NCBI GenBank assembly: GCA_965220195.1
Contig: CBDCPK010000005.1
Span: 899,704-963,703, forward strand
DNA from: an uncultured Candidatus Binatia bacterium
GTDB taxonomy: Bacteria > Desulfobacterota > Binatia > Bin18
DNA: 64,000 bases
Reading direction: 5' to 3'
In this document: positions 15,276 to 56,404 of the stretch, piece by piece
How positions within the stretch are numbered: position 1 is the first letter of the stretch
Layout of the letters: every line of letters begins with the position of its first letter
Translations under genes and position numbers: made by a program
Notes under the pieces: generated by a model
Database searches by the model: none
Told to the model about the DNA's origin: nothing
The model's input: the letters and a program-made list of their open reading frames with translations, nothing else

Positions 15276-15400
15276 GCTGACGATAGCTCCTTATATTTCT
15301 GACACTGCTGAGTAGCTGTGAGCAAGTAGAAACGAGAAAGTGAGTTCACCGGTATTAGGCGAATCGACAATTAACACAGGACTAGGGAGTAGGCTATTAC

Positions 15401-18231: not shown

Positions 18232-18249
18232 AAGGGGCTACTCCCTAGT

Positions 18250-32257: not shown

Positions 32258-32311
32258 AAAGAGTAAACGTGTTCAGCATCCCATGTCTATGGGAGAACAC
32301 GTTTACTCTTT
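32258..32311. repeat. palindromic MITE/REP-like element, copy 6
   Basis: AAAGAGTAAACGTGTtCAGCATcccatgtctATgGGAGaACACGTTTACTCTTT, overlapping the aminotransferase 3' end and upstream of the HAD gene. Confidence 0.8.
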
Positions 32312-35126: not shown

Positions 35127-36278
35127 ATGAGCCGGACTTCTCTTTTCGCTGGTCTCGTGTTTGGGGCAGGACTTGTCCTCCTGAGTGCGACCCAGGTTCT
35201 GACCCAAGAGAGAACGTTGCAAACCGAAGGCTGGCAGGGCAAGCGACCACAGCCCTCGGAGCAGCGGACCCCCGCTCCAGCCCCGCAGCGGCTAGCTCCC
35301 TCCGGGAAGCAGGTGCTCGAAATTCCCGTCCAGCCCCAACGCCCCGCCCTTCCGCCTCAGAGCCAGCAGGCGAGCCTCCCGCCTCGCCTCCAGCCTCTCC
35401 GCCCGCGTCCCAAACAACTGGTGACCGTTACCGTGACGGATCAAAATGGCGGCTACGTGCCCGGACTGCAAACGAACGATTTTGTGGTGTATGAAGGCGA
35501 CACGCGTCAGGAGATTACCTACTTCAATACCGGCGAGAATGAACCGGTCAGTCTGGGCTTAATCGTCGATTCGAGCGGCAGCATGCAGAATAAAATTGGG
35601 CACGCGCGCCACGCCCTGCAGCGGTTTATCGGCTCTATTAAGCCGCAGGACGAGGGCTTCCTGGTTGGATTCAGCGCACAGCCGTTTGTGCTGCAAGACT
35701 TCACGGACAGTCGGATGCTCCTGGCGCAGGGCATCGGCCTCCTCCGTCCACGGGGCGGAACCTCCCTATACGACGCGATTCTCACCGGTCTGCGGCGGAT
35801 GAGACAGGGTAAACACCGCAAGAAAGCCCTGATTGTGATGACCGACGGCATGGATACCGCCAGCCTATCCTCCCTCACGCAAACGATTGCCGTCTCGCAA
35901 CGCGCCGGCGTGCTGATTTACACGATTGGGATCGGCAATCCGCACCACCGTTACACGGCCGGTGGAAGCGGATTCGCTATCGGCCCATTCGGCGTTGTCG
36001 TTGGTGGGCATGATGAGCGTGTGGATTCACGAACGCTTCGGCGGTTGAGTGATGAAACCGGCGGACGCCACTTCCTGCTCAATACCAGGGATGTAGTCAA
36101 CAGCAGAACCGTGCTTGATACGGCGACCCAGACGATCTCGCGCGAACTCCGCTTCCAGTACAGTCTCGGCTACGTGTCCTCGGGAGGTGGCAATCAGTAC
36201 CGGAGTGTCCGCGTGGAAAGCACCCGGCCAGACGTCGTGATCCGCACCCAAAAGGGCTATGTGGCTGAGAGAGAGTAA
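35127..36278 (+). CDS. VWA domain-containing secreted protein with Pro/Gln-rich linker
   Basis: Signal peptide, PQ-rich low-complexity stretch, then vWA MIDAS (LIVDSSGSM...TSLYDA...MTDGMDT). The stop TAA is the first bases of the 51-bp repeat at 36270. Confidence 0.75.
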   Translation: MSRTSLFAGLVFGAGLVLLSATQVLTQERTLQTEGWQGKRPQPSEQRTPAPAPQRLAPSGKQVLEIPVQPQRPALPPQSQQASLPPRLQPLRPRPKQLVTVTVTDQNGGYVPGLQTNDFVVYEGDTRQEITYFNTGENEPVSLGLIVDSSGSMQNKIGHARHALQRFIGSIKPQDEGFLVGFSAQPFVLQDFTDSRMLLAQGIGLLRPRGGTSLYDAILTGLRRMRQGKHRKKALIVMTDGMDTASLSSLTQTIAVSQRAGVLIYTIGIGNPHHRYTAGGSGFAIGPFGVVVGGHDERVDSRTLRRLSDETGGRHFLLNTRDVVNSRTVLDTATQTISRELRFQYSLGYVSSGGGNQYRSVRVESTRPDVVIRTQKGYVAERE

Positions 36279-36322
36279 ACGTGTCCTCCAATGAGCGTGG
36301 ATAATGCTGGACACGTTCGCTC
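36270..36322. repeat. palindromic MITE/REP-like element, copy 7 (inverse orientation; right arm degenerate)
   Basis: GAGAGTAAACGTGTCCTCCAATgagcgtggataATGCTGGACACGTTcgCTCc. Supplies the VWA gene stop codon. Confidence 0.7.
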
Positions 36323-36354
36323 CTTGTAGCACGGCAGCCGCCTGCCCGGCCCTG

Positions 36355-43111: not shown

Positions 43112-44689
43112 GTGTGCAAGGGGTTGGGCAACGAGACACGGGCCGATATTGAGCACACGCCGAACCAGGACTATAATAGTGACCAGCCGGAGAACCCTGC
43201 TCGGCAACCCATGGCACGAGCAGCCGACGAGCCGATGGCAGCGCCCACGATTGAGCGACATCGCACTGCAATCACGCGGACCGACCTCTCCCGTCCGGTC
43301 CGTCTCGCGCTTGAGGACGGCCTGATCACCCCGGAGACGAGCGTCTTTGATTATGGCTGCGGGCGGGGCACGGATATTCTGCATCTCAGACATCGGCAGA
43401 TTCCCTGCCAGGGCTGGGACCCGGCCTATTTCCCGGACACCGAGCGAACGCCGGCCGATATTGTGAATCTGGGCTATGTGGTCAACGTGATCGAAAACCC
43501 AGGCGAGCGTACCGACGCCCTCCGCCGGGCCTGGGCACTGACCCGAACAGTGCTGATTGTGTCCGCCCGACTCAGCCTCGAAGCGGCGCTCGATACGCTG
43601 ACCCCTCATACCGACGGGGGCATTACCCGCCGCGGGACCTTTCAGAAATTTTTTGAACAGCAGGAACTCCGCGAGTGGATCGACACTGTGCTCGGCGTTT
43701 CGAGCGTGCCGGCCGGACCGGGGATTTTCTATGTGTTTCGGGACCCGCAGCAACGCCAGTCTTTTGCCGCCTCGCGCTATCGCCGCCGGTTCACGGTACC
43801 GCGCCAGCGTCTCAGCGAGGTCCTGTTCGAGCAGCATAAGGCTATCCTGGAGCCGCTGATAGAATTTCTGACGGCCCGGGGTCGCTTACCGGAGGACACG
43901 GAGCTGCCCGAGACGGAAGACATTTGTCAGGCATTAGGCAGTCTCAAACGGGCCTATGGCGTCATCCGGCGCGTCACCGGCGATGAAGAGTGGAATACAA
44001 TTCGCGCCGAGCGACAGCAGGATGTTCTCCTCTATGTCGCGCTCTCACGCTTTGAGGGCCGCCCGCGCTTCACCCAGCTCCCGCGTGATTTACAGCGTGA
44101 CGTGCGCGCGTTTTTCTCGTCCTATCGCCGCGCCTGCGCGCTGGCCGACGATCTGTTGTTTTCCGCGGGCGACCGGGCTGCGGTCGATCGGGCCTGCCGG
44201 AGCGTCGCAGTCGGGAAACTGACGCGCCAGGCCCTATACGTACACGAGTCCGCCCTGCCTCAACTCCCGCCCATTCTGCGTGCCTTTGAGGGGTGTGCGC
44301 GGGCGTATATCGGGGTGGTGGAGGGCGCGAATATCATCAAGCTGCACCGCGACCAGCCCCAGGTCTCTTATCTTTCGTACCCGGACTTCGAGCGCGACCC
44401 GCACCCCGCCCTGGCCAGCTCTCTGCTCGTGCCCTTGCAGACGTTCAAGATTCGCTACCGCACCTACCGGGAGTCGCCCAACCCGCCGATTCTGCACCGC
44501 AAAGAAACCTTTATCGCCACCGACCATCCCCTGTATGAAAAATTCTCCCGCCTGACATGCCAAGAAGAGAAAAAGGGACTATACGAAAAGCCCGAGTTGA
44601 TCGGCACCCGTGAAGGCTGGCAGGTCGCCCTGGCCGCCCGCGGCCTCCGCTTGGCCGGGCACCGGCTGATGCGCAAGGCTGCGCGTTAG
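43112..44689 (+). CDS. SAM-methyltransferase-like N-terminal domain protein with large uncharacterised C-terminal domain (resembles 'DNA phosphorothioation-associated putative methyltransferase' family)
   Basis: Class I MTase motif I-like VFDYGCGRGTDIL near the N-terminus, then about 350 aa with no motif I can name. The real start is probably 43211 or 43235 (MARAADEP/MAAPTIERHRTAI). The family assignment is from memory of the motif and context, not from a search. Confidence 0.55.
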   Translation: MCKGLGNETRADIEHTPNQDYNSDQPENPARQPMARAADEPMAAPTIERHRTAITRTDLSRPVRLALEDGLITPETSVFDYGCGRGTDILHLRHRQIPCQGWDPAYFPDTERTPADIVNLGYVVNVIENPGERTDALRRAWALTRTVLIVSARLSLEAALDTLTPHTDGGITRRGTFQKFFEQQELREWIDTVLGVSSVPAGPGIFYVFRDPQQRQSFAASRYRRRFTVPRQRLSEVLFEQHKAILEPLIEFLTARGRLPEDTELPETEDICQALGSLKRAYGVIRRVTGDEEWNTIRAERQQDVLLYVALSRFEGRPRFTQLPRDLQRDVRAFFSSYRRACALADDLLFSAGDRAAVDRACRSVAVGKLTRQALYVHESALPQLPPILRAFEGCARAYIGVVEGANIIKLHRDQPQVSYLSYPDFERDPHPALASSLLVPLQTFKIRYRTYRESPNPPILHRKETFIATDHPLYEKFSRLTCQEEKKGLYEKPELIGTREGWQVALAARGLRLAGHRLMRKAAR

Positions 44690-44801: not shown

Positions 44802-45077
44802 ATGTCAATTGCCGAGGCCAAGTCAGAACGCATTGAGGTCCGCACCACGCCGCATATGAAGGCATTACTGCAACGCGCGGCCACTGCTTCGCATAAGAGC
44901 GTAACGGAATTCCTGCTTGAAGCGGGCATGAGCGCCGCCGAGGACGCCCTGATAAACAGACGATTGTTCCGGCTTGACGACGAGCAGTGGCAGATATTTC
45001 AGGATGCGCTTGACCGCCCGGTCACCGGGAAACCTCGCTTGGCTCGACTGCTGGCCGAAAAGAGCGTGCTGGAGTGA
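44802..45077 (+). CDS. DUF1778 (TacA-like) antitoxin
   Basis: AGGAGG RBS. MSIAEAKSERIEVRTTPHMKALLQRAATASHKSVTEFLLEAG is an RHH-type DUF1778 antitoxin partner of GNAT toxins. Its stop overlaps the toxin start. Confidence 0.75.
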   Translation: MSIAEAKSERIEVRTTPHMKALLQRAATASHKSVTEFLLEAGMSAAEDALINRRLFRLDDEQWQIFQDALDRPVTGKPRLARLLAEKSVLE

Positions 45078-45598
45078 CAGCGGAAGCCGAATCCTATTCT
45101 CCGATTGAGAAGCTGCACGAAACCCACCGTCTCGACGCCTTTCACTGCGGGAAAGAGCCGCTTGACCGTTTCTTGAAGCGGTTTGCACTGCTCAACCAAA
45201 AGGCTGGCGGCGCGCAGACCTACGTCGTTTGTCGGGACCGTAAGCGTGTTGTCGGCTATTACAGTCTGGCAGTTGGCGCGGTTGAGCACGCAGAAGCGCC
45301 CGGCCGGGTCGGCAGGGGGTTGGCCCGGCATCCTATTCCGGTGATGCTTCTCGCCCGGCTCGCAATTGACCGGACAGAGCAGGGCAAGGGTTTGGGCAAG
45401 GCACTCCTCAAAGATGCCCTGCTCAGGACCGCTCAAGCCGCAGACATTGCCGGCATCCGGGCGCTTCTTGTCCACGCCAAGGACGATGAGGCGCGGGTCT
45501 GGTATGAGAATCTGGAATTCGAGCCCAGTCCGACCGACCCCTACCATCTCTTCCTGCTGATGAAGGACCTGCGGGCACTCCTGAGCAATAGGCCATAA
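45074..45598 (+). CDS. GNAT family N-acetyltransferase toxin (TacT-like)
   Basis: GNAT acetyl-CoA motif (QGKGLGKALL) and 4-nt overlap coupling to the DUF1778 gene. Confidence 0.8.
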   Translation: MTAEAESYSPIEKLHETHRLDAFHCGKEPLDRFLKRFALLNQKAGGAQTYVVCRDRKRVVGYYSLAVGAVEHAEAPGRVGRGLARHPIPVMLLARLAIDRTEQGKGLGKALLKDALLRTAQAADIAGIRALLVHAKDDEARVWYENLEFEPSPTDPYHLFLLMKDLRALLSNRP

Positions 45599-45644
45599 GT
45601 CTCCTATTTCTTGCAAAATAGAAATGGATTTCTAAAATGCAAGA

Positions 45645-45917
45645 ATGCTGGCACGAAAAATCACAGCGGTTCTGCGCGCCCGGCAGCGGTCCTACCCGTC
45701 AGAAGAGGCGAAGATTCTTATCGCCGTCAAGCTCTATGAGATGGGTCGATTATCCACCGGTGCGGTAGCGAAGTTTGCCGGTGTACCCAAGCCACTATTT
45801 CTGACAAAGCTGGCGGACTATGGTGGCGATACCTTCGACCTGTCAAATGAGGAGCTTCGGTCTGTAAGGAGGTCAAATTTCGCAAAGCAATCAGGAATTG
45901 AACAGTCTGTCTGGTAA
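45645..45917 (+). CDS. UPF0175 family antitoxin-like protein (orphan)
   Basis: 90 aa. ...AVKLYEMGRLSTGAVAKFAGVPKPLFLTKLADYG is the UPF0175 signature. No DUF3368 partner follows it. Confidence 0.6.
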   Translation: MLARKITAVLRARQRSYPSEEAKILIAVKLYEMGRLSTGAVAKFAGVPKPLFLTKLADYGGDTFDLSNEELRSVRRSNFAKQSGIEQSVW

Positions 45918-46208
45918 ACTGGTATTCATACGTTCGGCTTCAGGGAAATAGCTTGCAAAGACATCTTTCAGATTATCCAATTCTGTCTCCTCCAAGGGCT
46001 CTCCGATATGGTAGGCAATAAATCGGGAAGCAAAGGCGGCAGCTTGCTTCCCGCTAACGATTCTAGCTCCATTCATTAGAATCCTCTGCCACATCGGATT
46101 ATCAATCTCCCAATTCACTTGATTAATGCGCTCTAGGATGCTCTCCCAAGACAGTCTTGATCCATCAGGTTGTTCTGCATTTTTCAGTCTTATGACTGCT
46201 AGCATCAA
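45891..46208 (-). CDS. hypothetical protein (low-GC), last gene of the DUF4007/P-loop operon
   Basis: 105-aa ORF 73 bp downstream of the P-loop gene on the same strand. GC is visibly lower than in neighbouring genes. Confidence 0.4.
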   Translation of the reverse strand: MMLAVIRLKNAEQPDGSRLSWESILERINQVNWEIDNPMWQRILMNGARIVSGKQAAAFASRFIAYHIGEPLEETELDNLKDVFASYFPEAERMNTSLPDRLFNS

Positions 46209-46281
46209 CGATAATTGAGAAATTGGCTTCCCTAGGAGCAGACTTCCCCTTATCTCTATTCGCTTCTCATCTCCACCCTCC

Positions 46282-49200
46282 TCACGACACCTTCCGCTTT
46301 GTTGACCAGCTCTCGGTTGGAGTATCCGCCGCAGCCTTGAGATACCGGGCGCTCATCTCGGCCAGGGCAGCCAGGATGATATTCCGCCGCTTTTCCCCGC
46401 TGTGCTCTAGGGCTTCCTCCACCTGATCGATCAACACATCCACCTTCTCCCGTTCCAGGTCGGTAATATCAAACTCGTCGTGGACCGGCGTGGGACGGCC
46501 GCCCATACTCACCACCACGGCCATAGCATGTCGTTTGTCCGGCCGTCCCTTTACATGGGCAAAGACCTCCGCGCGGATAAACTGCTGCGCCAGTTGCGCC
46601 AACTCAACCGCTGCCCGGTCGATGTCGGAGTCTACCCAGTTTTGGGCCGGCTTGTTGGTTGCCATACTCGCCAGACTCTCCATGTCCTCGTTGTTACCCT
46701 GAAACTGTCCGAGCCGGACGATGAAAGCTTCCAGGCGATGATCGCCGCCCAGTTGGCGGATGTTTTCGGCACGAGCGCGCAGTTCGGCCAACATTGGGGG
46801 TGAGGTATTCGGCACTTCTAGCTCGGCCAACAGCGTTTCCCGTAGACGATGCAGCATTGAGGGATAGGCTTCGCGTAGCTCTCTCAGCCCCTCACGCATG
46901 TGGTCTACGATTCGACGCAGATCGTCGCCCTCGTGGATATCGGCACCGTTACTCAGCAGGTTAGGGATATCGTCAAAAATCAGCTTGTTCGGGTCATTGG
47001 CCTGCTTGAATAACTGCCGTACCTGTTTCGCATTAGCGGAAAGCTGTTGTGTACGGAATACCCACGGCGACAGCCGATCATAGATTGCAACCAGACCCCT
47101 AGCTACATCAATGGGCTCCAGGTCAGTCAGTGCATTCTCCTCGTCCAGCTCGCGGACAACGGCGGCCATATCGGAGAGGAGCCGACGCGATGTATCCGAA
47201 AGGTCCATCCAACGTAGCTGAATGTCGGTCGGGTCTTTGACCAGGTAATCCATGTCCAGGTCGGACATACGCGCCTGAAAGAGACCCTGACGATAAAAGG
47301 CCAGATCGTGACGCTTCGACAGGATGAATGCGACCAACAGCACCGGCAACAGCCCGTCTTTGATGCCGAACGATGCCTGACGCCAGATATCGTATATCTC
47401 GACTGCTGATACCGTGCGGTACGCGTTGTCCTCAAGGAACCTAGTTGCCCTCCACCAAGCCGGTCCGAGGTTGCGGGTATCTTCGTCGTTGGCCGTGGGC
47501 GCAACAAAGGTCCAGCCCAGGATCGTTCTTCGGTATAGCCCGGTCGCCTCCAGTAGCGATGCAAACAGTCCGCCCTCAGCAGGGAAACCCTCGATACCGA
47601 GACGCTCTTCGCCTTCGTTGAAAATCATTCTCCGTAGCAGCGCATTCCGCGCGGCAGCCGCGTTACTCGACGGTTTGCTACGGTTCAGGAGTTCGTTATG
47701 CAGACGCGGCGACTCCTTAAATTGCGCGTCCGCCAGGACAGAGGCTAGGCTATTGAGTTCGGTCCGCGTGAGCGGCTTGGTATCGTGCTGTTTCCGATAC
47801 CACAGAGCGTTATTGGACGCGCGATCCAACTCACTTTCCAGCCGCCCCTGGAGGAGCGCTATGCGGGCTTCAACCTCGCGCCGTGCTACTTGGTCGCCTT
47901 GCAGCTCCGGCGTCTCGTCGCTCACCTGCTCCAAGGCTAACAGCTCCCGCGCAAGGGACGTGATATCCCAAGCGTCCTGAGGCAGGCCAACTACAATATC
48001 CCAGTCCTGAGACCGATCTACAGCACGACGACATATATGCTCGATCTCCTCCCCCAACTCGCCCTGGGTCGGAATCGCTAGGAAGAAGGCCCCAATGGCT
48101 CCGTGCCGGGGGGTGTAGTTGGCTACAGCCTGTTCGATCTCGGCCAATGGCATGAGAGCTACGTCGAACCAGCGCAGCGTACCTGTCGCGTGGTAATGAC
48201 GCTTGGCCACAATAGGCTGAAGGTCAGCAAGAGCGTTGAGCCTGGCAAAGTCTACCTCGCTGATGGTCGTCAAAGCCTGCTCTACCGCGTGCTCAATGTC
48301 GAAGTCACTACCCTCAAAGACAGCATAGGCGTTATTAAACTTGCGGAAGATAATCAGCGCCTGGTCTTGCAGCTTCGCTAGAGCTTGTCCGATCTCTTCC
48401 GAACCGCAGTCGGGCAGCGCATGTTTCAGAAGATCAAGGCTTGCCACCAAACCGGAGCGGTCTTTCAGTAAATCCACGAGCGCGATGGTCTTGAGCAGCC
48501 TCAGATGCAGTTCCTCGCCGCCTATGGCTTCGCACCGTTCCAGGACATCGGCAGCCAAGGCCCAGCGGTGGCCGTCGGGTGAGGCCATGATGGAAGGTTC
48601 GAGGTTAATGCGCAGATAGTCCCACAGACGGTCCGGCGCATAGAGGCCGCCATCTCCTGCGGATCGCAGAAAATCTTGAAAGCCCTGTGGCTCAGTGGAG
48701 TTGAGAAACCCAAAAATGCTGCGCTGGTTCTGACCGAATCGACGCCGCGACAGGGGGCCTAGCAAGCAGGCGACTATGGGATGAAGCGGCCAACAGTCTT
48801 CCAGCATCTGCGCTAGATGTGAAGACGTATGTCTGCGCAGTACGGCCACGCTTTCGGCCAAGGCGCTCGGCTTCTTCGGCTCACGGTTGCTCTCGATAGC
48901 GCGGCTAAGGAGGTCAATCTGCTCGTCCCCACCAATATTGACAGCAAGGTCCACAAACCGGCCTTGAATCTTGGCCCACTCGTCGCGCATCTCACGCGCC
49001 AAACGATGGGCGTACTCTTCAAACGCCTGGTGGAGGATACCGACGACAATGAGTCGCTTGTTGCTACGCGAAGCCAATTCAGCGAGTTGCTGAAAGAAGT
49101 AAATATCGGTCCCGTCGTAGGCAGCCGCCTCCAGAAACTTGCCCATCTCGTCAATGAATACCAACAGCCCGCCACCAGCGCGTGGATACTGCGCCGCGAG

Positions 49201-49668
49201 ATTTTGGAGAGACTCCAGTGCGAGCGGCTCGCTCCAGGTCTTTGGGGTCTTACCGGTCAAAAGTCTGGTCGCTTCTATAGCTTCACCGACCACCTGGGCT
49301 GGGCGGTCACGCCGGCCGACAACAGGCAGGACGCGCCAGCCCTTAGTACGGGGCGGTAGCGCGTCCCAGATAGGATCAGCCGTATTTTCACCAAGGACCG
49401 AGGCCGCATAATACCTGAGATCGCCGTCTCCGTTCAGGAGGGCGCTGAATGCCACGGCCAGGCTCGACTTGCCACTGCCATAGGGGCCGGTCCAGGTAAA
49501 AGCGCCTTGCCCGTTCTCGGCAATGTGGCGCGCCATGGTCTTGAGGATATCGGCGGAGGATGGGGGGCAGATGAACCCTTTCAGAGCCGCCGGGTCGGCG
49601 AGGTCCGTGTCAATACGGATAGCACGCTGGAAGCGTCGGGCGATATGGACACGATCAGCTAGGGCCAT
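46282..49668 (-). CDS. large P-loop NTPase (1128 aa), candidate ATPase of a Dnd/Ssp- or BREX-like defence/modification cassette
   Basis: Walker A GPYGSGKSS (aa about 62-70) and Walker B-like LLVFIDEMG (aa about 178-186). The remaining roughly 900 aa look helical or repetitive. Its start ATG overlaps the stop of the upstream DUF4007-like gene (TAATG). Confidence 0.8.
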   Translation of the reverse strand: MALADRVHIARRFQRAIRIDTDLADPAALKGFICPPSSADILKTMARHIAENGQGAFTWTGPYGSGKSSLAVAFSALLNGDGDLRYYAASVLGENTADPIWDALPPRTKGWRVLPVVGRRDRPAQVVGEAIEATRLLTGKTPKTWSEPLALESLQNLAAQYPRAGGGLLVFIDEMGKFLEAAAYDGTDIYFFQQLAELASRSNKRLIVVGILHQAFEEYAHRLAREMRDEWAKIQGRFVDLAVNIGGDEQIDLLSRAIESNREPKKPSALAESVAVLRRHTSSHLAQMLEDCWPLHPIVACLLGPLSRRRFGQNQRSIFGFLNSTEPQGFQDFLRSAGDGGLYAPDRLWDYLRINLEPSIMASPDGHRWALAADVLERCEAIGGEELHLRLLKTIALVDLLKDRSGLVASLDLLKHALPDCGSEEIGQALAKLQDQALIIFRKFNNAYAVFEGSDFDIEHAVEQALTTISEVDFARLNALADLQPIVAKRHYHATGTLRWFDVALMPLAEIEQAVANYTPRHGAIGAFFLAIPTQGELGEEIEHICRRAVDRSQDWDIVVGLPQDAWDITSLARELLALEQVSDETPELQGDQVARREVEARIALLQGRLESELDRASNNALWYRKQHDTKPLTRTELNSLASVLADAQFKESPRLHNELLNRSKPSSNAAAARNALLRRMIFNEGEERLGIEGFPAEGGLFASLLEATGLYRRTILGWTFVAPTANDEDTRNLGPAWWRATRFLEDNAYRTVSAVEIYDIWRQASFGIKDGLLPVLLVAFILSKRHDLAFYRQGLFQARMSDLDMDYLVKDPTDIQLRWMDLSDTSRRLLSDMAAVVRELDEENALTDLEPIDVARGLVAIYDRLSPWVFRTQQLSANAKQVRQLFKQANDPNKLIFDDIPNLLSNGADIHEGDDLRRIVDHMREGLRELREAYPSMLHRLRETLLAELEVPNTSPPMLAELRARAENIRQLGGDHRLEAFIVRLGQFQGNNEDMESLASMATNKPAQNWVDSDIDRAAVELAQLAQQFIRAEVFAHVKGRPDKRHAMAVVVSMGGRPTPVHDEFDITDLEREKVDVLIDQVEEALEHSGEKRRNIILAALAEMSARYLKAAADTPTESWSTKRKVS

Positions 49669-50630
49669 TACGCGGCATCCCTCTTGTTATTCACGGCGTA
49701 GTCCAGATTGATGAAGTCAAGCGCAGCCTCGACGGACAACTCACGCTTGCGGATGAGTTGCTTCAGACCGGCCGTCTCCGACCACGTGTAGATGCCTTCG
49801 CTCGCCTCTTCCAGGTCAGTAAGCATATCCACCACACCGTTTTCGTCCAGTAGAAAGACCCGACCGGGTGACCCAGGCTCATAGGCAAGGGTCTCAAAGG
49901 ATAGCGTCTGGGCGGTTTTGGAAAACCGATTCCAGAAGTCCGTTACCGCATAGCAGAACACGCCAGCGCCGAGAGACGGCTTCTGCCCATGGACGAACCT
50001 GAACCGCTCGCTCTTGCCCACTCGTTTAACCAGACCAAGCTCGGTTAAGGGTGACTCCAGGGCGTCTTCCTGGCTGGCTTGTTTTGATGAGCGCTGCGCA
50101 ACATAGGTCCGTACAAAACAGGTCACGTCTCTTCCGATGGTGGCCTTGGAGGCACGATCCCAAGTGCACTCCTCGGCGAGTTTGCCAAGGGCTTTGACCA
50201 AGGTTTCACGCTCGAAGAACAGAGCCGGATAATGGCTGAAGGTCCAGAACCACGTAGTCTTATTTGGACGGCCACACAGATGCCAATGGATCAACCACGA
50301 CGTAGCCGGGTCTTCCATATAGGGATCAAGTCCGTCTGTGCCGAACAAGCGCTGTCCAAGAGCAGTGGTTACGAGCCCGTTCTTGTCGGTGGCCTCCTCA
50401 ATGATGCCTGTCGCCGTAGCCCAATGGCGCATGGAGGAAACCATGTTCTTACCAACGCCGAATCGGGCGATGGCATCTTCGCCAGAGAAAACCGATCTGT
50501 TGTCGTCCTGGTCTTCGGCTGCTTGGATGGCGTCAAAAGCCTTTTTTAACCAGCCATAGCGGAGCGGAAAAGTTTCGTGTCCCGAAAACTGCGGCTTGTA
50601 GCTGTCCTCAAAAAGTGGTCCGCGTGCCAT
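49668..50630 (-). CDS. DUF4007-like protein (SspB-like by motif recollection)
   Basis: 320 aa. The N-terminal FSGHETFPLRYGWLKK is the motif I associate with DUF4007, the domain of the phosphorothioation nickase SspB. Translationally coupled to the P-loop gene. Confidence 0.6.
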   Translation of the reverse strand: MARGPLFEDSYKPQFSGHETFPLRYGWLKKAFDAIQAAEDQDDNRSVFSGEDAIARFGVGKNMVSSMRHWATATGIIEEATDKNGLVTTALGQRLFGTDGLDPYMEDPATSWLIHWHLCGRPNKTTWFWTFSHYPALFFERETLVKALGKLAEECTWDRASKATIGRDVTCFVRTYVAQRSSKQASQEDALESPLTELGLVKRVGKSERFRFVHGQKPSLGAGVFCYAVTDFWNRFSKTAQTLSFETLAYEPGSPGRVFLLDENGVVDMLTDLEEASEGIYTWSETAGLKQLIRKRELSVEAALDFINLDYAVNNKRDAA

Positions 50631-50758: not shown

Positions 50759-51946
50759 ATGAAAATCGGCAAAACCCTCTATTTCGACCATCAGGCCACA
50801 ACGCCGGTCGATGCGCGTGTTATGGCCGCCATGACTCCCTATTTCGTGGAATCATTCGGCAATCCTCATTCCTCGGATCATAGCCTTGGTTGGGAATCCG
50901 CGAGTGCCGTGGAAAAAGCCGCCGCGCGCGTGACGCGGCTTATCGGCGCGGACGCCGACGAAATCACCTTCACCTCGGGAGCAACCGAGTCAAATAACTT
51001 AGCCCTGCTCGGCTTGGGCCGCCGGGCTGCCGGGGGCAAGCGCCGCCGCATCTTGGTCAGCGCCATCGAACATAAATGCGTGTTGGCCGCTGCCAGAGTT
51101 TTACAAGAGCAGTTCGGTTTCGCCGTAGAACTGATCCCGGTTGACCATCAAGGTTTCGTGAAAATGGCGGCTCTGGAAGAAGCGTTAGACGATGATGTTC
51201 TCGTCGTGTCGGTCATGGCGGTCAATAACGAAATCGGGACGATTCAAGATATTGGGCGAATATCCGAACTAGTAAGAGGCTACGGGGCCGTTTTTCATTG
51301 TGATGCAGCCCAAGCGCCCCTTGCCATGAATATGGAATCGATGGCGAGCCAGGCCGATATGCTGAGCCTTTCGGCGCACAAGATGTATGGCCCGAAAGGC
51401 ATTGGAGCCATCTATATTGCGCGTGAATTGCAGGACCAAATCGAGCCACTGATCTATGGCGGCGGACAGCAGAATGGTCTACGCTCGGGCACGGTTCCGG
51501 TTCCGCTCTGCGTTGGGATGGGTGCAGCAGCAGATATCTTTACCGCTGCCGACACGGAAGAGAAGCGGGCGCAGTTATGCCGCCGTCGCGATACGTTTGT
51601 TGAAATGCTCAACCGTCTACCGTGGCCGATAACGTTGAACGGCCCTCAAGGGCAGGCCCGCCACCCCGGCAATGCCAATATCCGGTTCGCTGGATTTTCA
51701 GCGGAGGACATCCTCAGCACTTTACAGCCGCACCTCGCGGCATCCACCGGTTCTGCCTGCACCTCGGGTATCCCCGAGCCGTCGCACGTTCTGAGAGCTA
51801 TCGGGTTGAGTGGTGAGGAGGCGGAATCCTCGATTCGTTTCAGCCTCGGCTTTGACACCACCGACGCAGACCTTGAAGAGGCGGTGCGGCTAATTACGGA
51901 GGCATTGACGCGGTTGGCGCGGGCCGGGCTGTGTGCTGGGTCGTAG
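50759..51946 (+). CDS. cysteine desulfurase (IscS/NifS/DndA-like class V aminotransferase)
   Basis: 395 aa. LYFDHQATTPVD start, PLP lysine region SLSAHKMYGPKGIGA, and the catalytic Cys in the C-terminal loop (ASTGSACTSG). Confidence 0.85.
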   Translation: MKIGKTLYFDHQATTPVDARVMAAMTPYFVESFGNPHSSDHSLGWESASAVEKAAARVTRLIGADADEITFTSGATESNNLALLGLGRRAAGGKRRRILVSAIEHKCVLAAARVLQEQFGFAVELIPVDHQGFVKMAALEEALDDDVLVVSVMAVNNEIGTIQDIGRISELVRGYGAVFHCDAAQAPLAMNMESMASQADMLSLSAHKMYGPKGIGAIYIARELQDQIEPLIYGGGQQNGLRSGTVPVPLCVGMGAAADIFTAADTEEKRAQLCRRRDTFVEMLNRLPWPITLNGPQGQARHPGNANIRFAGFSAEDILSTLQPHLAASTGSACTSGIPEPSHVLRAIGLSGEEAESSIRFSLGFDTTDADLEEAVRLITEALTRLARAGLCAGS

Positions 51947-51974
51947 AAAACCCATCCCGCCGCTGACGCGGCAC

Positions 51975-52028
51975 AAAGAGAGAACGTGTCCAGCATCACA
52001 TGTGTATTGGAGGACACGTTTCCTCTTT
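51975..52028. repeat. palindromic MITE/REP-like element, copy 8
   Basis: AAAGAGAgAACGTGTCCAGCATcacatgtgtATTGGAGGACACGTTTcCTCTTT, 30 bp after the cysteine desulfurase stop. Confidence 0.8.
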
Positions 52029-52993
52029 CCCTCCCAAGACGTGTGATGTGTATTATTAGCCAGGGACGAGGGTGGTGAGTGCTAAGGTGGGCCGTCCGAA
52101 GAGGTGATTCAGCCACAGGCCGAGATTGCCGGCGTCCAACTGGGCCGCGATGCGGGTCAGCAAGCCGTGGGCGGTCTGGGCGCCCGGAAAGTGTCGGCCA
52201 CAGGGGCGTGTGAGGGGGCCATGGATGGTCTCGACGATCGGGCGCCAGCGGCCCTACGGGCGTTTGACGGGAGCCCGCGTTGCCGCCCGCCCCTTCGGGG
52301 GCGGGAGTACCGGCGCCCCGCCAGAGCGCGGGGAGAGTGGGGAATGCAGGTATTGAAGACAGGCGAATGAGAGAATATATTCTGGCTCGAAAGCAGAAGA
52401 CACTCTGAGCGAAACGCGGGCGGCGCCCACCGGACATAGAACGCTGTTTAACATGTGGCTGATTTTGAATTGGTGATTGGGCCATAATTGTGTCGGGGCG
52501 CCGCATGCGGCGCTCCTGTCGGTCGTATATGTCATAAAATGTCGTACAAAAAGACAAATTACGGCTCAATAAGCCATCAAAGTGTGCACAAAAAGACCCC
52601 CTGCGGTTCAATAAGTTATTGATTTCATTGCATTCAGGTCGGAGACCCCCCCCTATATTTTTTTGGGGTGTTTGCTATAGAAGAACAGCGTTTTATAATA
52701 CTTTCCCAAGAGTCCCCCGCAGACACGAGAAAACCGGGTCGCTCCCTTCTCCTCCCCGCTCGGGACGGGTGAGGCGTTTTGCCGCGTCAGCCCAGGAAGA
52801 GGGGGGCAACGGCCACGGCGGGCCGGCCGAAGCGGTGGGTGAGCCAGGGGCCGAGAGTGCCGGCGGCGCGCTTGGCGGCCAGTCGGGGCAACCAGCCCCG
52901 GGGGCTGTGGGCGCCCGGACAGGGCAAGCCTAGCCTATCCTCGACACGCTCCTTATAAAGTGCCCCCTAATCTGCATCACCCCTCCCAAGAGG

Positions 52994-54291
52994 CTGACAA
53001 GGGTAGGTAACCGCCGCGTCATGGCGGTCCATACGTCACCTGGAGATGCGGGGGCGGCTGAGGCCAGGGCTCAGGCAGGAGCCACAAGCTACGCCACAGC
53101 CGGCCCTGGAGGAGTTGGCGGCCGAACCACTGCAAGCCTTGGCGGAAGACACTGAGGGGGCGGGGGCCGGGCGGCGGCGGGTCCCGCGGTGTCCGTAAGT
53201 GGGCGGGCGGCACGCCCTGCGTCTGGGCGTCCTCACTGCGGGTGCCATAGGCCACGACCCACAAGGTCGCGACCGCCAACACTAACCAGTGGCGCGCCAC
53301 GCGCGCGGGATCGGTCCGGCGGGTGTGCTGCCACTGCCAGCCTACGCCTTTCAGAGCGCGGAAGCCGCATTCAATCCACATCCGTAAGCCGTACCAACAC
53401 AGCCCGACTTGGGCCGGGGCGAGATCGGTCACCACCACCCACGGTTCCCGTTGCTCCGCGCCCCAGACCACTACGAGTGTGCCCACCCGCTGGCGCTGGC
53501 GCTCCTGAAAGAGCACCCCGCGCCCGACCCAGCCCTCCCCTGGAGCCCGGACCAAGGTCGCGGCTGGCTGGCGCGCGGCCCCGAACGGTTGAAAGGCGGT
53601 CGCCTGACGCACTCGCATCATCGGATGCCAACCCCCGGCCCGAATCGTCCGCCACAGCCGGGGGCTCCACAGCCCCCGGTCCGCGAACACCACCACCTGC
53701 ATCTCCTTGGGAATGGCGGGGCGCAACTGGCGCAGCAAGCGCCCCAAGGGGCGCAGCCATGCGCCCTTGCGATTCGCCGGTAAGATATGCCACGCCACTG
53801 GCACCGCACTCCCGCGATACAAGACACTGACCACTAATGCCGCCACGCGCTGCCCGTGCAAGGTCGCATCCACGGCCAAGGCTAACTCGCGCCCTTGCCA
53901 CCAAGCTAAGAGCCAGCCCAGCAACGGCGCGAAACATTGCTCGACCTCCACTTGCGGCTGACACGGCGCCGCTTTATCGGCCCCATCGTACAACCATTCC
54001 CGGAGGTATTGCCGGACCGTGTGAAAGCGGCCGACCGCCCCTAACGCACTCACCACCGCGTTCTGACACGCACTCTGGGCGACCACGGCCCCATACACCC
54101 ACAACGCTAACCCCCGCCGCTGGGCCGGCCGTAAGACCGGTAAATACTGGGCAAGCTGCTCTTCCATCTGGTAACATTCTCGTGGCAAGCGCATGGGCTC
54201 CCTCCGACACCATTCGAGTTTCAGCACTCCAAATGATGCCGGAGGCCCTTGCGCTTGCCTATGGCTCCGCCCTTTTACCTACCCCTCTGAG
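52994..54291 (-). mobile_element. intact IS4-family-like insertion sequence (about 1.3 kb) with imperfect terminal inverted repeats and 11-bp target-site duplication CTCCCAAGAGG
   Basis: IRL CTGACAAGGGTAGGTAA (52994-53010) and IRR reverse-complement CTCAGAGGGGTAGGTAA (54275-54291) match at 14 of 17 positions. The flanking direct repeats CTCCCAAGAGG sit at 52983-52993 and 54292-54302. Joining the flanks recreates the CACCCCTCCCAAGAGGGGATGGGG hairpin repeat seen elsewhere. Confidence 0.65.
53019..54227 (-). CDS. DDE transposase (IS4/IS701-like)
   Basis: 402 aa. ...LAVDATLHG...VVFADRGLW...YGLRMWIECGFRALK carries the DDE residues and the IS4-type Y-x2-R-x3-E-x6-K motif. Confidence 0.8.
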   Translation of the reverse strand: MLKLEWCRREPMRLPRECYQMEEQLAQYLPVLRPAQRRGLALWVYGAVVAQSACQNAVVSALGAVGRFHTVRQYLREWLYDGADKAAPCQPQVEVEQCFAPLLGWLLAWWQGRELALAVDATLHGQRVAALVVSVLYRGSAVPVAWHILPANRKGAWLRPLGRLLRQLRPAIPKEMQVVVFADRGLWSPRLWRTIRAGGWHPMMRVRQATAFQPFGAARQPAATLVRAPGEGWVGRGVLFQERQRQRVGTLVVVWGAEQREPWVVVTDLAPAQVGLCWYGLRMWIECGFRALKGVGWQWQHTRRTDPARVARHWLVLAVATLWVVAYGTRSEDAQTQGVPPAHLRTPRDPPPPGPRPLSVFRQGLQWFGRQLLQGRLWRSLWLLPEPWPQPPPHLQVTYGPP

Positions 54292-54322
54292 CTCCCAAGA
54301 GGGGATGGGGATATCGGGTAAA

Positions 54323-54529
54323 ATGATGCGGAAACAGACAATTGAATACCCCTCCCCCTTTGATGCGTTGATAGCAGTGACGAAGCGGCTGAGCATTTAT
54401 GAGAGCCAGCAGCAGATGGACTCGGAGGAGTTCTTTGATCGGTACAACCGGGGCAAACTGTCGGATGACACGGTGTTTGTGGAATGGGCGAACGATTACC
54501 GCCATTATTTGGAACTTCGCCAGAAATGA
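54323..54529 (+). CDS. hypothetical small protein (68 aa)
   Basis: ATGATG start 20 nt after the IS right flank. MMRKQTIEYPSPFDALIAVTKRLSIYESQQQMDSEEFFDRYNRGKLSDDTVFVEWANDYRHYLELRQK. Possibly an addiction-module component, which is speculative. Confidence 0.35.
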   Translation: MMRKQTIEYPSPFDALIAVTKRLSIYESQQQMDSEEFFDRYNRGKLSDDTVFVEWANDYRHYLELRQK

Positions 54530-54682
54530 GAAAAAAGCCTGCACGATGTTGCAGCATGTCATGGACGCGGTGGTTAGAGAATGAGGACGTATAACGCGGA
54601 ACAGACTGGACTTGTTTGACTCTCCTGTGAATCAGGATACGATGCCTGGGAATAGCCATCGAAACGACAAGGAGCACGAAAC

Positions 54683-54952
54683 ATGTCGAGACGGCTTAAC
54701 TTTGAAGTGGAAGTTCCGGACGACGTGTGTGTACATCTCCCTCAGGAGGAGTTTGCCGCTAAGGCAAAAGAGGCGCTGGTTATGGAGCTCTTGCGTGAGC
54801 ACCAGATATCGCAAGGCAAGGCCGCAGAGATGCTTGAGATACCGCGCCATGACTTGTTTGACCTGATGACGAGATATCAAGTCTCGGTTCTTGATCTAAC
54901 GCACGAGGAACTCAAGGCTGAACTACAGAAGCCCTTTCCCCGAGCTTCTTAA
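54683..54952 (+). CDS. UPF0175 family antitoxin-like protein
   Basis: 89 aa. ...ALVMELLREHQISQGKAAEMLEIPRHDLFDLM. Followed 10 nt later by a DUF3368 gene. Confidence 0.65.
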   Translation: MSRRLNFEVEVPDDVCVHLPQEEFAAKAKEALVMELLREHQISQGKAAEMLEIPRHDLFDLMTRYQVSVLDLTHEELKAELQKPFPRAS

Positions 54953-54961
54953 GCGTTCTAT

Positions 54962-55444
54962 ATGCAGGTTGTTGCGGATGCCGGTCCTCTTCTCTCATTT
55001 GCCCGCGCCGAGCGTCTAGCCCTCCTCAAATCCGTCACGGGCTCTGTCATTATTCCAACAGCCGTCTACGAAGAGATTGTCGTTAAGGGTGCTGGTAAAC
55101 GTGGCGCGGATGAGGTGGAGCACGCAGACTGGATTGAGCGCCGATCCGTTAGAGATCAGACGTTCGCCGATCGCTTACCCCATAAACTCCATAGTGGAGA
55201 ACGCGAAGCCATCACACTCGCCAGGGAGATTGGCGGGAGCTTGTTAGTTGACGAGTTGGAAGTCAGGAAGGAAGCGCAACGCCTCGGCGTTCACTATTTT
55301 GGCAGTCTTGCCCTGCTTAAAGAAGCAAAGCAGCGTGGGCGCATTCTCGCGGTAAAGCCGGTCCTAGACGAGCTGATTGCAGCCGGCACCTATATTAGCA
55401 AATCGCTCTATCAAGACGTGCTTGAACAGGTTGGGGAGACATAG
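54962..55444 (+). CDS. DUF3368 (PIN-like) domain toxin-like protein
   Basis: MQVVADAGPLLSFARAERLALLK...LVDELEVRKEA is the typical DUF3368 partner of UPF0175. Confidence 0.7.
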   Translation: MQVVADAGPLLSFARAERLALLKSVTGSVIIPTAVYEEIVVKGAGKRGADEVEHADWIERRSVRDQTFADRLPHKLHSGEREAITLAREIGGSLLVDELEVRKEAQRLGVHYFGSLALLKEAKQRGRILAVKPVLDELIAAGTYISKSLYQDVLEQVGET

Positions 55445-55491
55445 CGGGCCGGGTTGGGTGTGGGGTCGGAGAGTACCCACCCCGCCTTCGG

Positions 55492-55514
55492 CACCCCTCC
55501 CAAGAGGGGATGAG
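55492..55514. repeat. C/G-rich hairpin repeat (REP2 family: CACCCCTCCCAAGAGGGGATG...)
   Basis: Between convergent DUF3368 and TauD genes. The same motif occurs at 58711-58734 (thiG-thiE spacer) and, split by the IS, at 52978-52993 plus 54292-54310. Confidence 0.6.
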
Positions 55515-55534
55515 AAGGGTGGGCAAAGATAATA

Positions 55535-56404
55535 TTACAAGGTGGAAGAGCCGGGGCCGGCAAATTCGGACGCCGGGTCGCCGGCGATTCTGGCGTGGTA
55601 CATCACTCGCGCTTCGGTCATGTCCCAGGGACAGGCCTGGTGCAGCAGGCGGCGGTTATCCCACAGCACGGCGTCGCCGGCAGTCCACCGGTGATGATAG
55701 ACGCGTGGCGGCCGGCAGGTATGGTCCACCAGCGCCCGGAGCAAGTGTTCGGATTCGGCCGGGTCCATTCCCGGAATGCCGTAGGCATGACGGCCGATCA
55801 GCAGGGACTTGCGCCCGGTCTCGGGATGCGTTTTCACCAGGGGTCTCAGCGGCGGGTCCTTCACATCCAGACCATAGCCGTTATAGTCGCCGCCTTTTTT
55901 GGCTGCAAACCCGATCTTTTTCTGTGAGTAGCGCAGGGAATGGTAGGCCGACAGGTCGGCGACTTTCTCTTTCATGGCGTCGTCGAGCGCATCATACCCG
56001 GCGCGTAAATCCGCCCAGCCGGTCTCCCCGCGCGCCGCAGGCACGACGTGGGCCGTGAACACCGCGCCCTTGGCCTGCACGGGCATATAGGTACTGTCAC
56101 AATGCCAGCCCATATTCCCTTTGAGCACTTGAATCATCTCGTCGGAATCGTCTTCGACGCGAATGCTGCCGTCTTTTTTGACGTTGCTGATCGGCACCAG
56201 ATCAAACTCCAGCTCACCGAAGCGTTTGGCAAATTCGACCTGCTGGTCGTTGGAGAGATGCTGGTCCGGGAAGATGAGCAGCGCGTACTCAAGCCAGGTG
56301 TCGTACAGCCGGCTGAAGGTTGTCTCGTCAATTTCGGCCAGCTTGAGTCCGGTCACGGTCGCCCCAAAGCTCGCGTCGAGCGGTTTCACATGAAAATCTG
56401 TCAT
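55535..56404 (-). CDS. TauD/TfdA family Fe(II)/2-oxoglutarate-dependent dioxygenase
   Basis: 289 aa with the HxD...H facial triad context (WHCDSTY ... H) and overall TauD-like sequence. Confidence 0.85.
   Translation of the reverse strand: MTDFHVKPLDASFGATVTGLKLAEIDETTFSRLYDTWLEYALLIFPDQHLSNDQQVEFAKRFGELEFDLVPISNVKKDGSIRVEDDSDEMIQVLKGNMGWHCDSTYMPVQAKGAVFTAHVVPAARGETGWADLRAGYDALDDAMKEKVADLSAYHSLRYSQKKIGFAAKKGGDYNGYGLDVKDPPLRPLVKTHPETGRKSLLIGRHAYGIPGMDPAESEHLLRALVDHTCRPPRVYHHRWTAGDAVLWDNRRLLHQACPWDMTEARVMYHARIAGDPASEFAGPGSSTL

What the first reader, a model, noticed from the sequence alone, without database searches (positions are those of the whole stretch)
46282..49668. 1128-aa P-loop NTPase with N-terminal ATPase core and about 900 aa of unassigned, probably helical sequence
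Walker A sits at residues about 62-70 and a DE-containing Walker B at about 180. The rest has no motif I can place. It contains long Leu/Ala/Glu/Arg-rich stretches (ELRARAENIRQLGGDHRLEAF..., QVARREVEARIALLQGRLESELDRASN) suggesting coiled-coil or SMC-like arms. Its start codon shares a base with the DUF4007-like stop (TAATG). Proteins of this size with an N-terminal P-loop occur as BrxC/PglY in BREX and as DndD/SspC (smaller) in phosphorothioation systems. Which it is determines what the cassette does.
Basis: seen in the sequence. Interest (0 to 1): 0.6.

Follow-up and report, generated by a model that had tools for sequence, protein, structure and literature searches.

The report
SspC ATPase in a broken cassette
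The 1128-residue protein is an ordinary member of the known SspC family, the ATPase of the Ssp system that puts sulfur into the DNA backbone, but here the essential partner gene sspD has been deleted, so the cassette is most likely a recently disabled remnant.

Summary
The ORF is real: minus strand, 49668..46282, 1128 aa, Walker A at residues 61-68, Walker B D173-E174, and an ATG that overlaps the upstream stop (TAATG). It is SspC. It matches the PADLOC SspC profile over its full length (E=0, 1337 bits). It lies directly after sspB (DUF4007) and next to a divergent sspA (cysteine desulfurase).

The predicted fold is not SMC-like. It has an ORC/Cdc6-type AAA+ core, a lid, three winged-helix-like modules around an alpha+beta domain, and a roughly 300-aa helical tail. 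The best solved match is the N-terminal half of BREX BrxC, followed by ORC/Cdc6 proteins.

The only unusual point concerns the cassette, not the protein. All 82 informative relatives carry sspD just downstream of sspC (directly in most, within about 1.2 kb in four). No sspD exists anywhere in this 64 kb window. The junction is readable. The sspD ribosome-binding site and ATG (GGTGGAGATG) are fused through a 10-nt microhomology to the inside of a dndB-like gene, leaving a 4-codon stub and a 128-codon dndB tail.

sspA, sspB and sspC are intact and show no relaxed constraint, so the deletion looks recent. The family and system are known. Interest is low.

The parts
46282..49668 (-). sspC: 1128-aa AAA+ ATPase of the ORC/Cdc6 clade. 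Walker A K67, Walker B D173/E174, candidate arginine-finger pair K233/R237. Predicted domains: P-loop core 36-262, lid 263-362, winged-helix-like 363-452, alpha+beta 453-634, winged-helix-like 635-725 and 730-822, helical tail 823-1115.
   Evidence: ORF and translation. PADLOC SspC PDLC02780, E=0, 1337 bits, protein 3-1054 on profile 1-1044/1045. Motif positions. Invariant residues in 64 homologues. AF2 model. Foldseek top hits are BrxC 9zll/9zdx, then ORC/Cdc6.
49668..50630 (-). sspB (DUF4007, 320 aa). Its stop overlaps the sspC start (TAATG).
   Evidence: Pfam DUF4007, 6e-91, 305 bits. PADLOC SspB, 1.5e-110, full length. Overlap confirmed.
50759..51946 (+). sspA (class-V aminotransferase-fold cysteine desulfurase, 395 aa), transcribed divergently from sspBC.
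   Evidence: Pfam Aminotran_5, 1.8e-81. PADLOC SspA, 1.7e-131. NCBIfam IscS/DndA-like, below the equivalog cut-offs.
46268..46277 (-). Deletion junction: the 10-nt microhomology GGTGGAGATG. This is the sspD ribosome-binding site plus start codon in relatives, and it also occurs inside the dndB-like gene of L074. To the left the window follows sspABCD relatives (L081, L082, L001). To the right it follows the interior of the L074 dndB-like gene.
   Evidence: blastn break points: homology to L001, L081 and L082 ends at window 46268, and homology to L074 begins at 46280. The three sequences were read side by side.
46256..46270 (-). Stub of sspD: the retained ATG followed by AGA AGC GAA TAG (M-R-S-E-stop).
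   Evidence: Sequence read directly. Relatives continue MERHVLGLSGGRDS..., the SspD PP-loop.
45891..46280 (-). 3' remnant of a dndB-like (DGQHR) gene. It corresponds to residues 295-422 of the 423-aa protein of L074, at 90% identity. A 105-codon TTG ORF (46208..45891) survives by chance.
   Evidence: tblastn of the L074 DndB-like protein: residues 295-422 match window 46280-45897, 90% identity, 5e-72. Pfam DndB positions 284-336/338. PADLOC DndB. The full-length L074 protein hits Pfam DndB at 7.9e-35.

Best explanation
The ORF encodes SspC, the AAA+ ATPase of the SspABCD system that makes single-strand DNA phosphorothioate modifications.

Shown here:
- Full-length family membership.
- An intact P-loop.
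- A predicted ORC/Cdc6-type AAA+ core, followed by a lid, winged-helix-like modules, an alpha+beta domain and a helical tail.
- Translational coupling to sspB, and an adjacent sspA.

Inferred from published work on Ssp and on the homologous BrxC:
- SspC binds ATP at K67/E174.
- It oligomerises face-to-back through a trans-acting K233/R237 finger pair, into rings or stacks on DNA.
- It uses its winged-helix and alpha+beta domains, together with the SspB nickase / DNA reader, to select sites.
[quoted passage not shown] A deletion mediated by a 10-nt microhomology removed all of sspD after its start codon. It also removed the 5' two-thirds of a downstream dndB-like gene, about 2.7 kb on the coordinates of relative L074. 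What remains is sspA, sspB and sspC, with no sulfur-inserting enzyme and no restriction partner in the window. The three surviving genes show no decay, so the loss is probably recent. Unless a PAPS-reductase-like enzyme is supplied from elsewhere in the genome, the cassette most likely no longer modifies DNA.
For: Identity:
- PADLOC SspC, E=0, 1337 bits, end to end.
- More than 5000 homologues, the closest 94% identical and of the same length.
- sspB and sspA assignments.

Fold:
- AF2 model with pLDDT 73.
- Foldseek top hits are Acinetobacter BrxC 9zll/9zdx (E 4e-8, prob 1.0, about 590 aligned columns), then S. cerevisiae ORC/Cdc6 and archaeal ORC2.
- K233 and R237 are invariant in 64 homologues and lie just before strand 5.
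- They have the same K-x3-R spacing as the BrxC fingers K326/R330, and a similar offset from Walker B (PMC13326643).

Loss of sspD:
- tblastn with two SspD proteins finds nothing better than E=0.75 in 64 kb.
- A profile built from 79 SspD sequences finds nothing better than E=0.75 (5 bits) in the six-frame translation.
- 79 of 79 informative genome loci have sspD just downstream of sspC, directly in most and within about 1.2 kb in four.
- So do the closest metagenomic relatives L081, L082 and L083.
- The junction was read at nucleotide level.

No decay:
- SspC deviates at 4 positions that are at least 95% conserved, against a median of 7 in relatives.
- dN/dS between the window and L081 is 0.10.
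- Lineage-specific changes are 49 synonymous to 12 non-synonymous, no worse than in relatives that keep sspD.

Need for the PAPS-reductase partner:
- brxP plus brxC are the minimal set for phosphorothioate synthesis in the homologous BREX type 4 system (PMC12914056).
- Reviews list sspD among the core activities (PMC12707154).
Against: - Only 64 kb of the genome is visible. An sspD, dndC or brxP elsewhere could complement the loss.
- The strong purifying selection on sspC is also what one would expect if the gene were still in use.
- The mechanism of SspC has not been determined experimentally for any member. Oligomerisation and the finger residues are transferred from BrxC, which is only 11-12% identical over the structural alignment.
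- The C-terminal 160 residues are modelled with low confidence.
- An assembly error at the junction cannot be excluded without reads.
Confidence: 0.77

Rival explanations
1. The cassette still works. sspA, sspB and sspC are retained because a PAPS-reductase-like enzyme (a second sspD, dndC or brxP) encoded outside the window supplies the sulfur-insertion step in trans.
For: sspC and sspB show normal purifying selection and no disabling changes. A phosphorothioation-associated methyltransferase gene (TIGR04096) and a dndB remnant nearby show that this region has a history of PT-related genes. The literature notes that sulfur-system genes can be unlinked: the cysteine desulfurase often is (PMC12707154).
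Against: In all 82 informative relatives sspD lies within about 1.2 kb downstream of sspC, usually overlapping its end. This argues for tight co-expression. No PAPS-reductase-like sequence occurs in the window. The conservation is equally explained by a recent deletion.
Confidence: 0.13
2. The missing sspD is an assembly artefact or a minority variant. Two co-occurring strains were joined at a short shared sequence, and the real genome has an intact sspABCD.
For: All close relatives come from metagenomes. The window's sspBC resembles one lineage (L001/L081/L082). The sequence beyond the junction resembles another (L074).
Against: The shared sequence is only 10-11 nt, shorter than assembler k-mers or long-read overlaps. 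Both sides of the junction belong to the same conserved chromosomal neighbourhood: the thiE-TauD-sspA flank and the methyltransferase flank are about 86-93% identical to single Binatia chromosomes L025 and L074. Junctions at short microhomology are typical of genuine deletions.
Confidence: 0.06
3. The protein is the BrxC/PglY ATPase of a BREX system (type 4, phosphorothioate-based) rather than SspC.
For: One PADLOC BrxC profile aligns almost end to end (PDLC02478, 9e-112, 373 bits). The best solved structural match is BrxC. The literature treats BrxC and SspC as homologues (PMC12914056, PMC12839542).
Against: The SspC profile scores 1337 bits against 373. NCBIfam BREX_BrxC gives 19 bits against a cut-off of 400. 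No PglZ, BrxL or BrxP is found among the ORFs scanned in the window. The DUF4007 protein is a separate SspB-type gene, not a BrxP fusion. Every relative has the sspA|sspBCD layout.
Confidence: 0.02
4. The protein is a DndD-like or SMC-like ABC ATPase with long coiled-coil arms, as the Leu/Ala/Glu/Arg-rich stretches suggested.
For: Composition is rich in L, A, R and E. The last 300 or so residues are predicted to be helical. BrxC relatives are described as having a C-terminal coiled-coil extension (PMC12839542).
Against: No DndD, PbeC or SMC profile hits this protein in PADLOC or Pfam. The fold search returns AAA+ proteins, not ABC/SMC heads. The ATPase domain is contiguous, not split by a coiled coil. 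The longest predicted helix has 36 residues.
Confidence: 0.01

Closest known systems
SspC of the SspABCD(-SspE/-SspFGH) DNA phosphorothioation systems (Vibrio cyclitrophicus FF75, E. coli 3234/A, V. anguillarum FF-93)
   Same: Full-length profile match. Same size. Same position immediately after sspB (DUF4007), with sspA adjacent. Intact Walker A and B motifs. AAA+ fold of the ORC/Cdc6 clade, as described for the family (PMC10853773).
   Different: The cassette lacks sspD, which all 82 informative relatives examined here possess. No SspE, SspFGH or Pbe-type restriction partner is present in the window. The host appears to be an uncultured Candidatus Binatia-like bacterium, judged from flanks 86-93% identical to Binatia MAG chromosomes.
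BrxC/PglY of BREX systems (solved N-terminal structure of Acinetobacter BrxC, PDB 9zdx/9zll; BREX type 4 BrxC)
   Same: Best solved structural match over about 590 residues. Same overall order of domains: AAA+, lid, wHTH, alpha+beta, wHTH(s), helical C-terminus (against PMC12839542). An equivalent K-x3-R finger pair before strand 5. A near end-to-end match to one PADLOC BrxC profile.
   Different: Only 11-12% identity to type 1 BrxC in the structural alignment, and no sequence-level PDB hit. It fails the NCBIfam BrxC threshold. No PglZ, BrxL, BrxB or BrxP partners are present. In experiments sspC did not substitute for brxC (PMC12914056).
DndD of DndABCDE phosphorothioation systems
   Same: Functional analogue: the ATPase subunit of a DNA phosphorothioation machine that works with a cysteine desulfurase and a PAPS-reductase-like enzyme (PMC12707154).
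   Different: Unrelated fold. DndD is an ABC/SMC-type ATPase with a coiled-coil insert, whereas SspC is an ORC/Cdc6-type AAA+ (PMC10853773). This protein gives no DndD profile hit.

Membership tests
SspC (Ssp phosphorothioation ATPase) | End-to-end match to an SspC family profile | tested here: met
   PADLOC PDLC02780, E=0, 1337 bits, residues 3-1054 on profile 1-1044/1045. Eleven further SspC profiles also hit.
SspC (Ssp phosphorothioation ATPase) | Intact P-loop NTPase motifs (Walker A lysine, Walker B acidic pair) | tested here: met
   GPYGSGKS at 61-68 and LLVFIDE at 168-174. G61-S68 apart from Y63 and S65, together with D173/E174, are invariant in 64 homologues.
SspC (Ssp phosphorothioation ATPase) | AAA+ fold of the ORC/Cdc6 clade, followed by DNA-binding winged-helix modules | tested here: met
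   The predicted model matches BrxC, ORC, Cdc6 and archaeal ORC2 at prob 1.0. The winged-helix assignment rests on secondary-structure topology only. The C-terminal half has no significant PDB match.
SspC (Ssp phosphorothioation ATPase) | Encoded immediately downstream of sspB (DUF4007), with a cysteine desulfurase sspA/iscS available | tested here: met
   sspB is at 50630..49668 with a TAATG overlap. sspA is at 50759..51946.
SspABCD system (as a functional cassette) | sspD (PAPS-reductase-like PP-loop enzyme) adjacent to sspC | tested here: not met
   There is no SspD-like sequence in the 64 kb window. It is present in 79/79 informative genome loci and in L081-L083. The deletion junction was read directly. 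This fails the test for a complete system, not for SspC as a protein.
SspABCD system (as a functional cassette) | ATPase activity of SspC and phosphorothioate in the host DNA | not testable with these tools
   Needs biochemistry and LC-MS/MS of PT dinucleotides.
BrxC/PglY (BREX) | Passes the curated BrxC model | tested here: not met
   NCBIfam NF033441 BREX_BrxC gives 19.4 bits against a cut-off of 400. The PADLOC BrxC profile scores 373 bits, far below SspC at 1337.
BrxC/PglY (BREX) | PglZ (and BrxL, or BrxP in type 4) in the same gene cluster | tested here: not met
   No such hits among the ORFs scanned, which cover the immediate neighbourhood and the larger ORFs across the window. The rest of the window is metabolic or housekeeping.
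DndD / SMC-like ABC ATPases | ABC-type head split by long antiparallel coiled coil | tested here: not met
   No DndD or SMC profile hit. The AAA+ domain is contiguous. The longest predicted helix has 36 residues. The fold search returns AAA+ proteins only.

The most novel reading that the evidence does not exclude
SspB and SspC are kept under selection without SspD because they have a phosphorothioate-independent role. One possibility is a DNA-scanning ATPase/reader pair that now serves another modification enzyme, such as the nearby TIGR04096 'phosphorothioation-associated' methyltransferase. This would mirror the way BrxC serves a methyltransferase in BREX type 1 and a PAPS reductase in type 4.
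Probability: 0.04. Interest if true: 0.6.

Novelty: already known. Interest (0 to 1): 0.15.

Why it matters
The large 'unassignable' P-loop protein is SspC, so the cassette is an Ssp DNA-phosphorothioation module, not BREX and not Dnd.

It matters little beyond annotation. The family, its system and its fold class are all published.

Two small practical points remain.
- Pfam and NCBIfam do not name this protein, so genomes like this one will carry it as 'ATP-binding protein'. A defence-specific profile library resolves it at once.
- The locus is a clean natural example of a modification module inactivated by a single microhomology-mediated deletion. Presence of sspB and sspC alone should not be counted as a working PT system in surveys.

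Tried and rejected
- Sequence search of the PDB with the single protein and with a 64-sequence profile gave no meaningful hit.
- Pfam gave only sub-threshold AAA_29.
- NCBIfam gave only a 19-bit BrxC hit.
- A separate AF2 model of the C-terminal half, residues 560-1128 (pLDDT 67), found no solved structure (best E 0.42). The winged-helix and alpha+beta labels for that half therefore rest on topology and on the published BrxC description.
- I looked for sspD, Pbe-type and SspE-type genes elsewhere in the window with tblastn and a custom SspD HMM. There were none.
- I tested for decay of sspC after the loss of sspD, using deviations at conserved columns, dN/dS and lineage-specific changes. No signal appeared.
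- I tested whether variability in SspC is concentrated in one domain. The alpha+beta and two winged-helix-like modules are only modestly more variable (0.55-0.58 against 0.65-0.70 identity).
- The 321-codon minus-strand ORF 51646..52611 was rejected as a gene. Its only similarity to relatives is the antisense of the sspA 3' end, and it has no family hits.
- The 205-codon minus-strand ORF 44999..45616 was rejected in favour of the GNAT gene on the plus strand.
Full report
**1. The observation**

- The window has an uninterrupted ORF of 1128 codons at 46282..49668.
- Walker A (GPYGSGKS) is at residues 61-68. Walker B (LLVFIDE) ends at D173-E174.
- The ATG shares base 49668 with the TAA stop of the upstream gene (GTAATGG on the coding strand).
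- Pfam gives only a sub-threshold AAA_29 hit. NCBIfam gives only 19 bits to BREX_BrxC, against a cut-off of 400.

**2. What it is**

- The PADLOC library settles the identity. The protein matches an SspC profile end to end (PDLC02780, E=0, 1337 bits, residues 3-1054 on profile 1-1044/1045).
- Eleven further SspC profiles follow. One BrxC profile comes far behind at 373 bits. No DndD profile hits at all.
- The upstream, translationally coupled gene (50630..49668) is SspB/DUF4007 (Pfam 6e-91, PADLOC 1.5e-110).
- The divergent gene at 50759..51946 is the cysteine desulfurase SspA.
- The family is large. 5221 proteins scored E<=1e-5, the best 94% identical and also 1128 aa.
- 80 genome loci were retrieved, led by Candidatus Binatia MAGs. 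The window's flanks are 86-93% identical to Binatia chromosomes.

**3. Fold**

An AlphaFold2 model built on 64 homologues has mean pLDDT 73. It is confident to about residue 960 and poor for 971-1069. Its secondary structure divides as follows.

| Residues | Predicted element |
|---|---|
| 36-262 | P-loop alpha/beta core. Walker A follows strand 1, Walker B is on strand 3, and two helices are inserted between strands 2 and 3 |
| 263-362 | Helical lid |
| 363-452 | Helix-helix-helix-strand-strand module (winged-helix-like) |
| 453-634 | alpha+beta domain |
| 635-725 | Winged-helix-like module |
| 730-822 | Winged-helix-like module |
| 823-1115 | All-helical tail; longest helix 36 residues (915-950) |

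- Foldseek against the PDB puts the N-terminal 550-residue structure of Acinetobacter BrxC first (9zll_D, E 4e-8; also 9zdx). Yeast ORC/Cdc6 and Aeropyrum ORC2 follow, all at probability 1.0.
- This agrees with the literature. SspC is described as an ORC/Cdc6-clade AAA+ that replaces the ABC ATPase DndD (PMC10853773). It is 'essentially' a BrxC homologue sharing DUF6079 (PMC12914056).
- BrxC is described as AAA+, helical bundle, wHTH, alpha+beta, wHTH(s), then a coiled-coil end (PMC12839542).
- The SMC-like reading is therefore rejected.
- The C-terminal half, modelled alone, finds no solved relative.

**4. Catalytic residues (inference)**

- In the BrxC cryo-EM dimer, ATP is held by K78 (Walker A), E269 (Walker B) and R430 (sensor 2) of one subunit. 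K326 and R330 of the neighbouring subunit act as the arginine fingers (PMC13326643).
- In SspC the invariant K233 and R237 have the same K-x3-R spacing. They sit at the end of the helix just before strand 5. They lie 59 and 63 residues after the Walker B glutamate, against 57 and 61 in BrxC.
- Sensor 2 could be one of the invariant R308, R310 or R316. I could not decide among these.

**5. The unexpected part: sspD is gone**

- Every relative has the order sspA | sspB sspC sspD. sspD is a 275-284-aa PP-loop / PAPS-reductase-like protein (PADLOC SspD 3e-138 for L001).
- 79 of 79 informative genome loci carry sspD just downstream of sspC, starting at or within tens of bases of its end in most and within about 1.2 kb in four.
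- The closest metagenomic relatives carry it too: L081 and L083 (94% SspC identity) and L082 (91%).
- In the window, tblastn with two SspD proteins gives nothing better than E=0.75.
- An HMM built from 79 SspD sequences gives nothing better than E=0.75 (5 bits) against all six frames.

**6. The junction**

- DNA homology to L001, L081 and L082 runs from sspA through sspC and stops at window 46268.
- Homology to L074, a syntenic Binatia chromosome, restarts at 46280. That point corresponds to L074 position 16048, inside a 423-aa DndB-like (DGQHR) gene.
- Read side by side:
  - relative L081: ...GTCGTGAGGGGGGGTGGAGATGGAACGGCAC, where ATG GAA CGG CAC is the sspD start (MERH)
  - L074: ...CCGAAGGTGGAGATGAAAAGCGAATAGAGATAAG
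  - window: ...GTCGTGAGGAGGGTGGAGATGAGAAGCGAATAGAGATAAG
- The shared GGTGGAGATG (window 46277-46268) is the crossover point.
- The sspD start codon survives and is followed by three codons and a stop.
- The next 385 bases are residues 295-422 of the DndB-like protein, at 90% identity.
- On L074 coordinates about 2.7 kb is missing.
- In L074 that interval holds sspD, two small ORFs, a GIY-YIG protein and the first 294 codons of the dndB-like gene. Whether the window's ancestor had exactly those intervening genes is unknown.

**7. State of the survivors**

- SspC deviates from relatives at only 4 columns that are at least 95% conserved. The median for the 63 relatives is 7.
- dN/dS to L081 is 0.10.
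- Changes unique to the window lineage are 49 synonymous to 12 non-synonymous. The figures are 48:16 for L081 and 54:24 for L082, which both keep sspD.
- SspB and SspA are full length.
- So either the deletion is recent or the genes are still used.

**8. Surroundings**

- Downstream of the remnant lie a UPF0175 gene (45645..45917, +) and a GNAT gene (45074..45598, +).
- Next is a TIGR04096 'DNA phosphorothioation-associated putative methyltransferase' (43112..44689, +, 625 bits). The same methyltransferase sits beside complete sspABCD cassettes in L074 and L025. It is therefore not a substitute for sspD.
- Beyond sspA are an IS4-family element and a UPF0175/DUF3368 pair. Then come TauD, thiE, thiG, purH and purD.
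- The left part of the window is metabolic: molybdenum hydroxylases, three MMPL transporters and others.
- No PglZ, BrxL, BrxP, SspE, SspFGH or Pbe gene was found among the scanned ORFs. BREX is excluded, and no restriction partner is visible.

**9. Mechanism and verdict**

- Shown: this is an SspC orthologue with an intact ATPase site, in an sspA|sspBC arrangement.
- Inferred from published Ssp and BrxC work: SspC undergoes ATP-driven, DNA-stimulated oligomerisation. Acting with SspB, it positions the sulfur-transfer enzymes at target sites (PMC10853773, PMC12707154, PMC13326643).
- The PAPS-reductase-type partner is required for phosphorothioate synthesis in the homologous BrxP/BrxC pair (PMC12914056), and reviews list sspD among the core activities. 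This cassette most likely no longer modifies DNA.
- The main rival is complementation by an unlinked sspD or dndC. It cannot be tested in a 64 kb window.
- An assembly artefact is unlikely. The overlap is only 10 nt, and both sides belong to the same conserved neighbourhood.
- The protein and its system are already known. The only noteworthy feature is a neatly resolved gene-loss event.

Noticed in passing
window 43112-44689 (+): A 525-aa protein matches TIGR04096, 'DNA phosphorothioation-associated putative methyltransferase', at 625 bits but has no Pfam hit. Orthologues at 90-92% identity lie beside complete sspABCD cassettes in Binatia loci L074 and L025. Its function and its link to PT systems are uncharacterised.
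   Followed up: partly
L006 14261-17868; L066 14257-17789; L074 14275-16437, and at least 15 other related loci: In many relatives sspD is followed by a small ORF (150-173 aa), a DndB-like DGQHR protein (420-474 aa) and an SNF2/PbeA-like helicase. In L074 a GIY-YIG protein precedes the DndB-like gene. This recurrent module is not SspE or SspFGH by PADLOC. It may be an undescribed restriction partner of SspABCD.
   Followed up: partly
window 50759-51946 versus 46282-50630; loci L017, L025, L058, L074: Four Binatia relatives share about 90% identical SspA and flanking genes with the window, but only 56-60% identical SspB and SspC. SspD stays 82-83% identical to that of L001. This suggests the sspBC pair is exchanged as a unit between lineages, as expected for specificity-determining subunits.
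   Followed up: partly
window 52993-54292: An IS4-family insertion sequence carries a transposase at 53019..54227 (-) and 18-nt terminal inverted repeats. CTCCCAAGAGG flanks it on both sides and is a probable target-site duplication. It lies within a 3.6-kb insertion (51960-55555) relative to locus L025.
   Followed up: partly
window 54300-55444 (+): A UPF0175-like small protein and a DUF3368 protein match the PADLOC candidate defence families PDC-M44A and PDC-S70. They look like a toxin-antitoxin-type pair next to the IS. A second UPF0175 gene (45645-45917) sits beside a GNAT gene (45074-45598).
   Followed up: no
window 51975-52028; also 32266-32316, 26475-26520, 11839-11861, 11454-11474, 36272-36327: A palindromic intergenic repeat of about 50 nt (26-nt arms, 2-nt loop) occurs in several copies in the window. 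It is also present in relative L082. It resembles a REP or MITE element.
   Followed up: no
window 12750-20772 (-): Three tandem paralogous MMPL/RND-type transporter genes of 838-841 aa each lie in a row.
   Followed up: no
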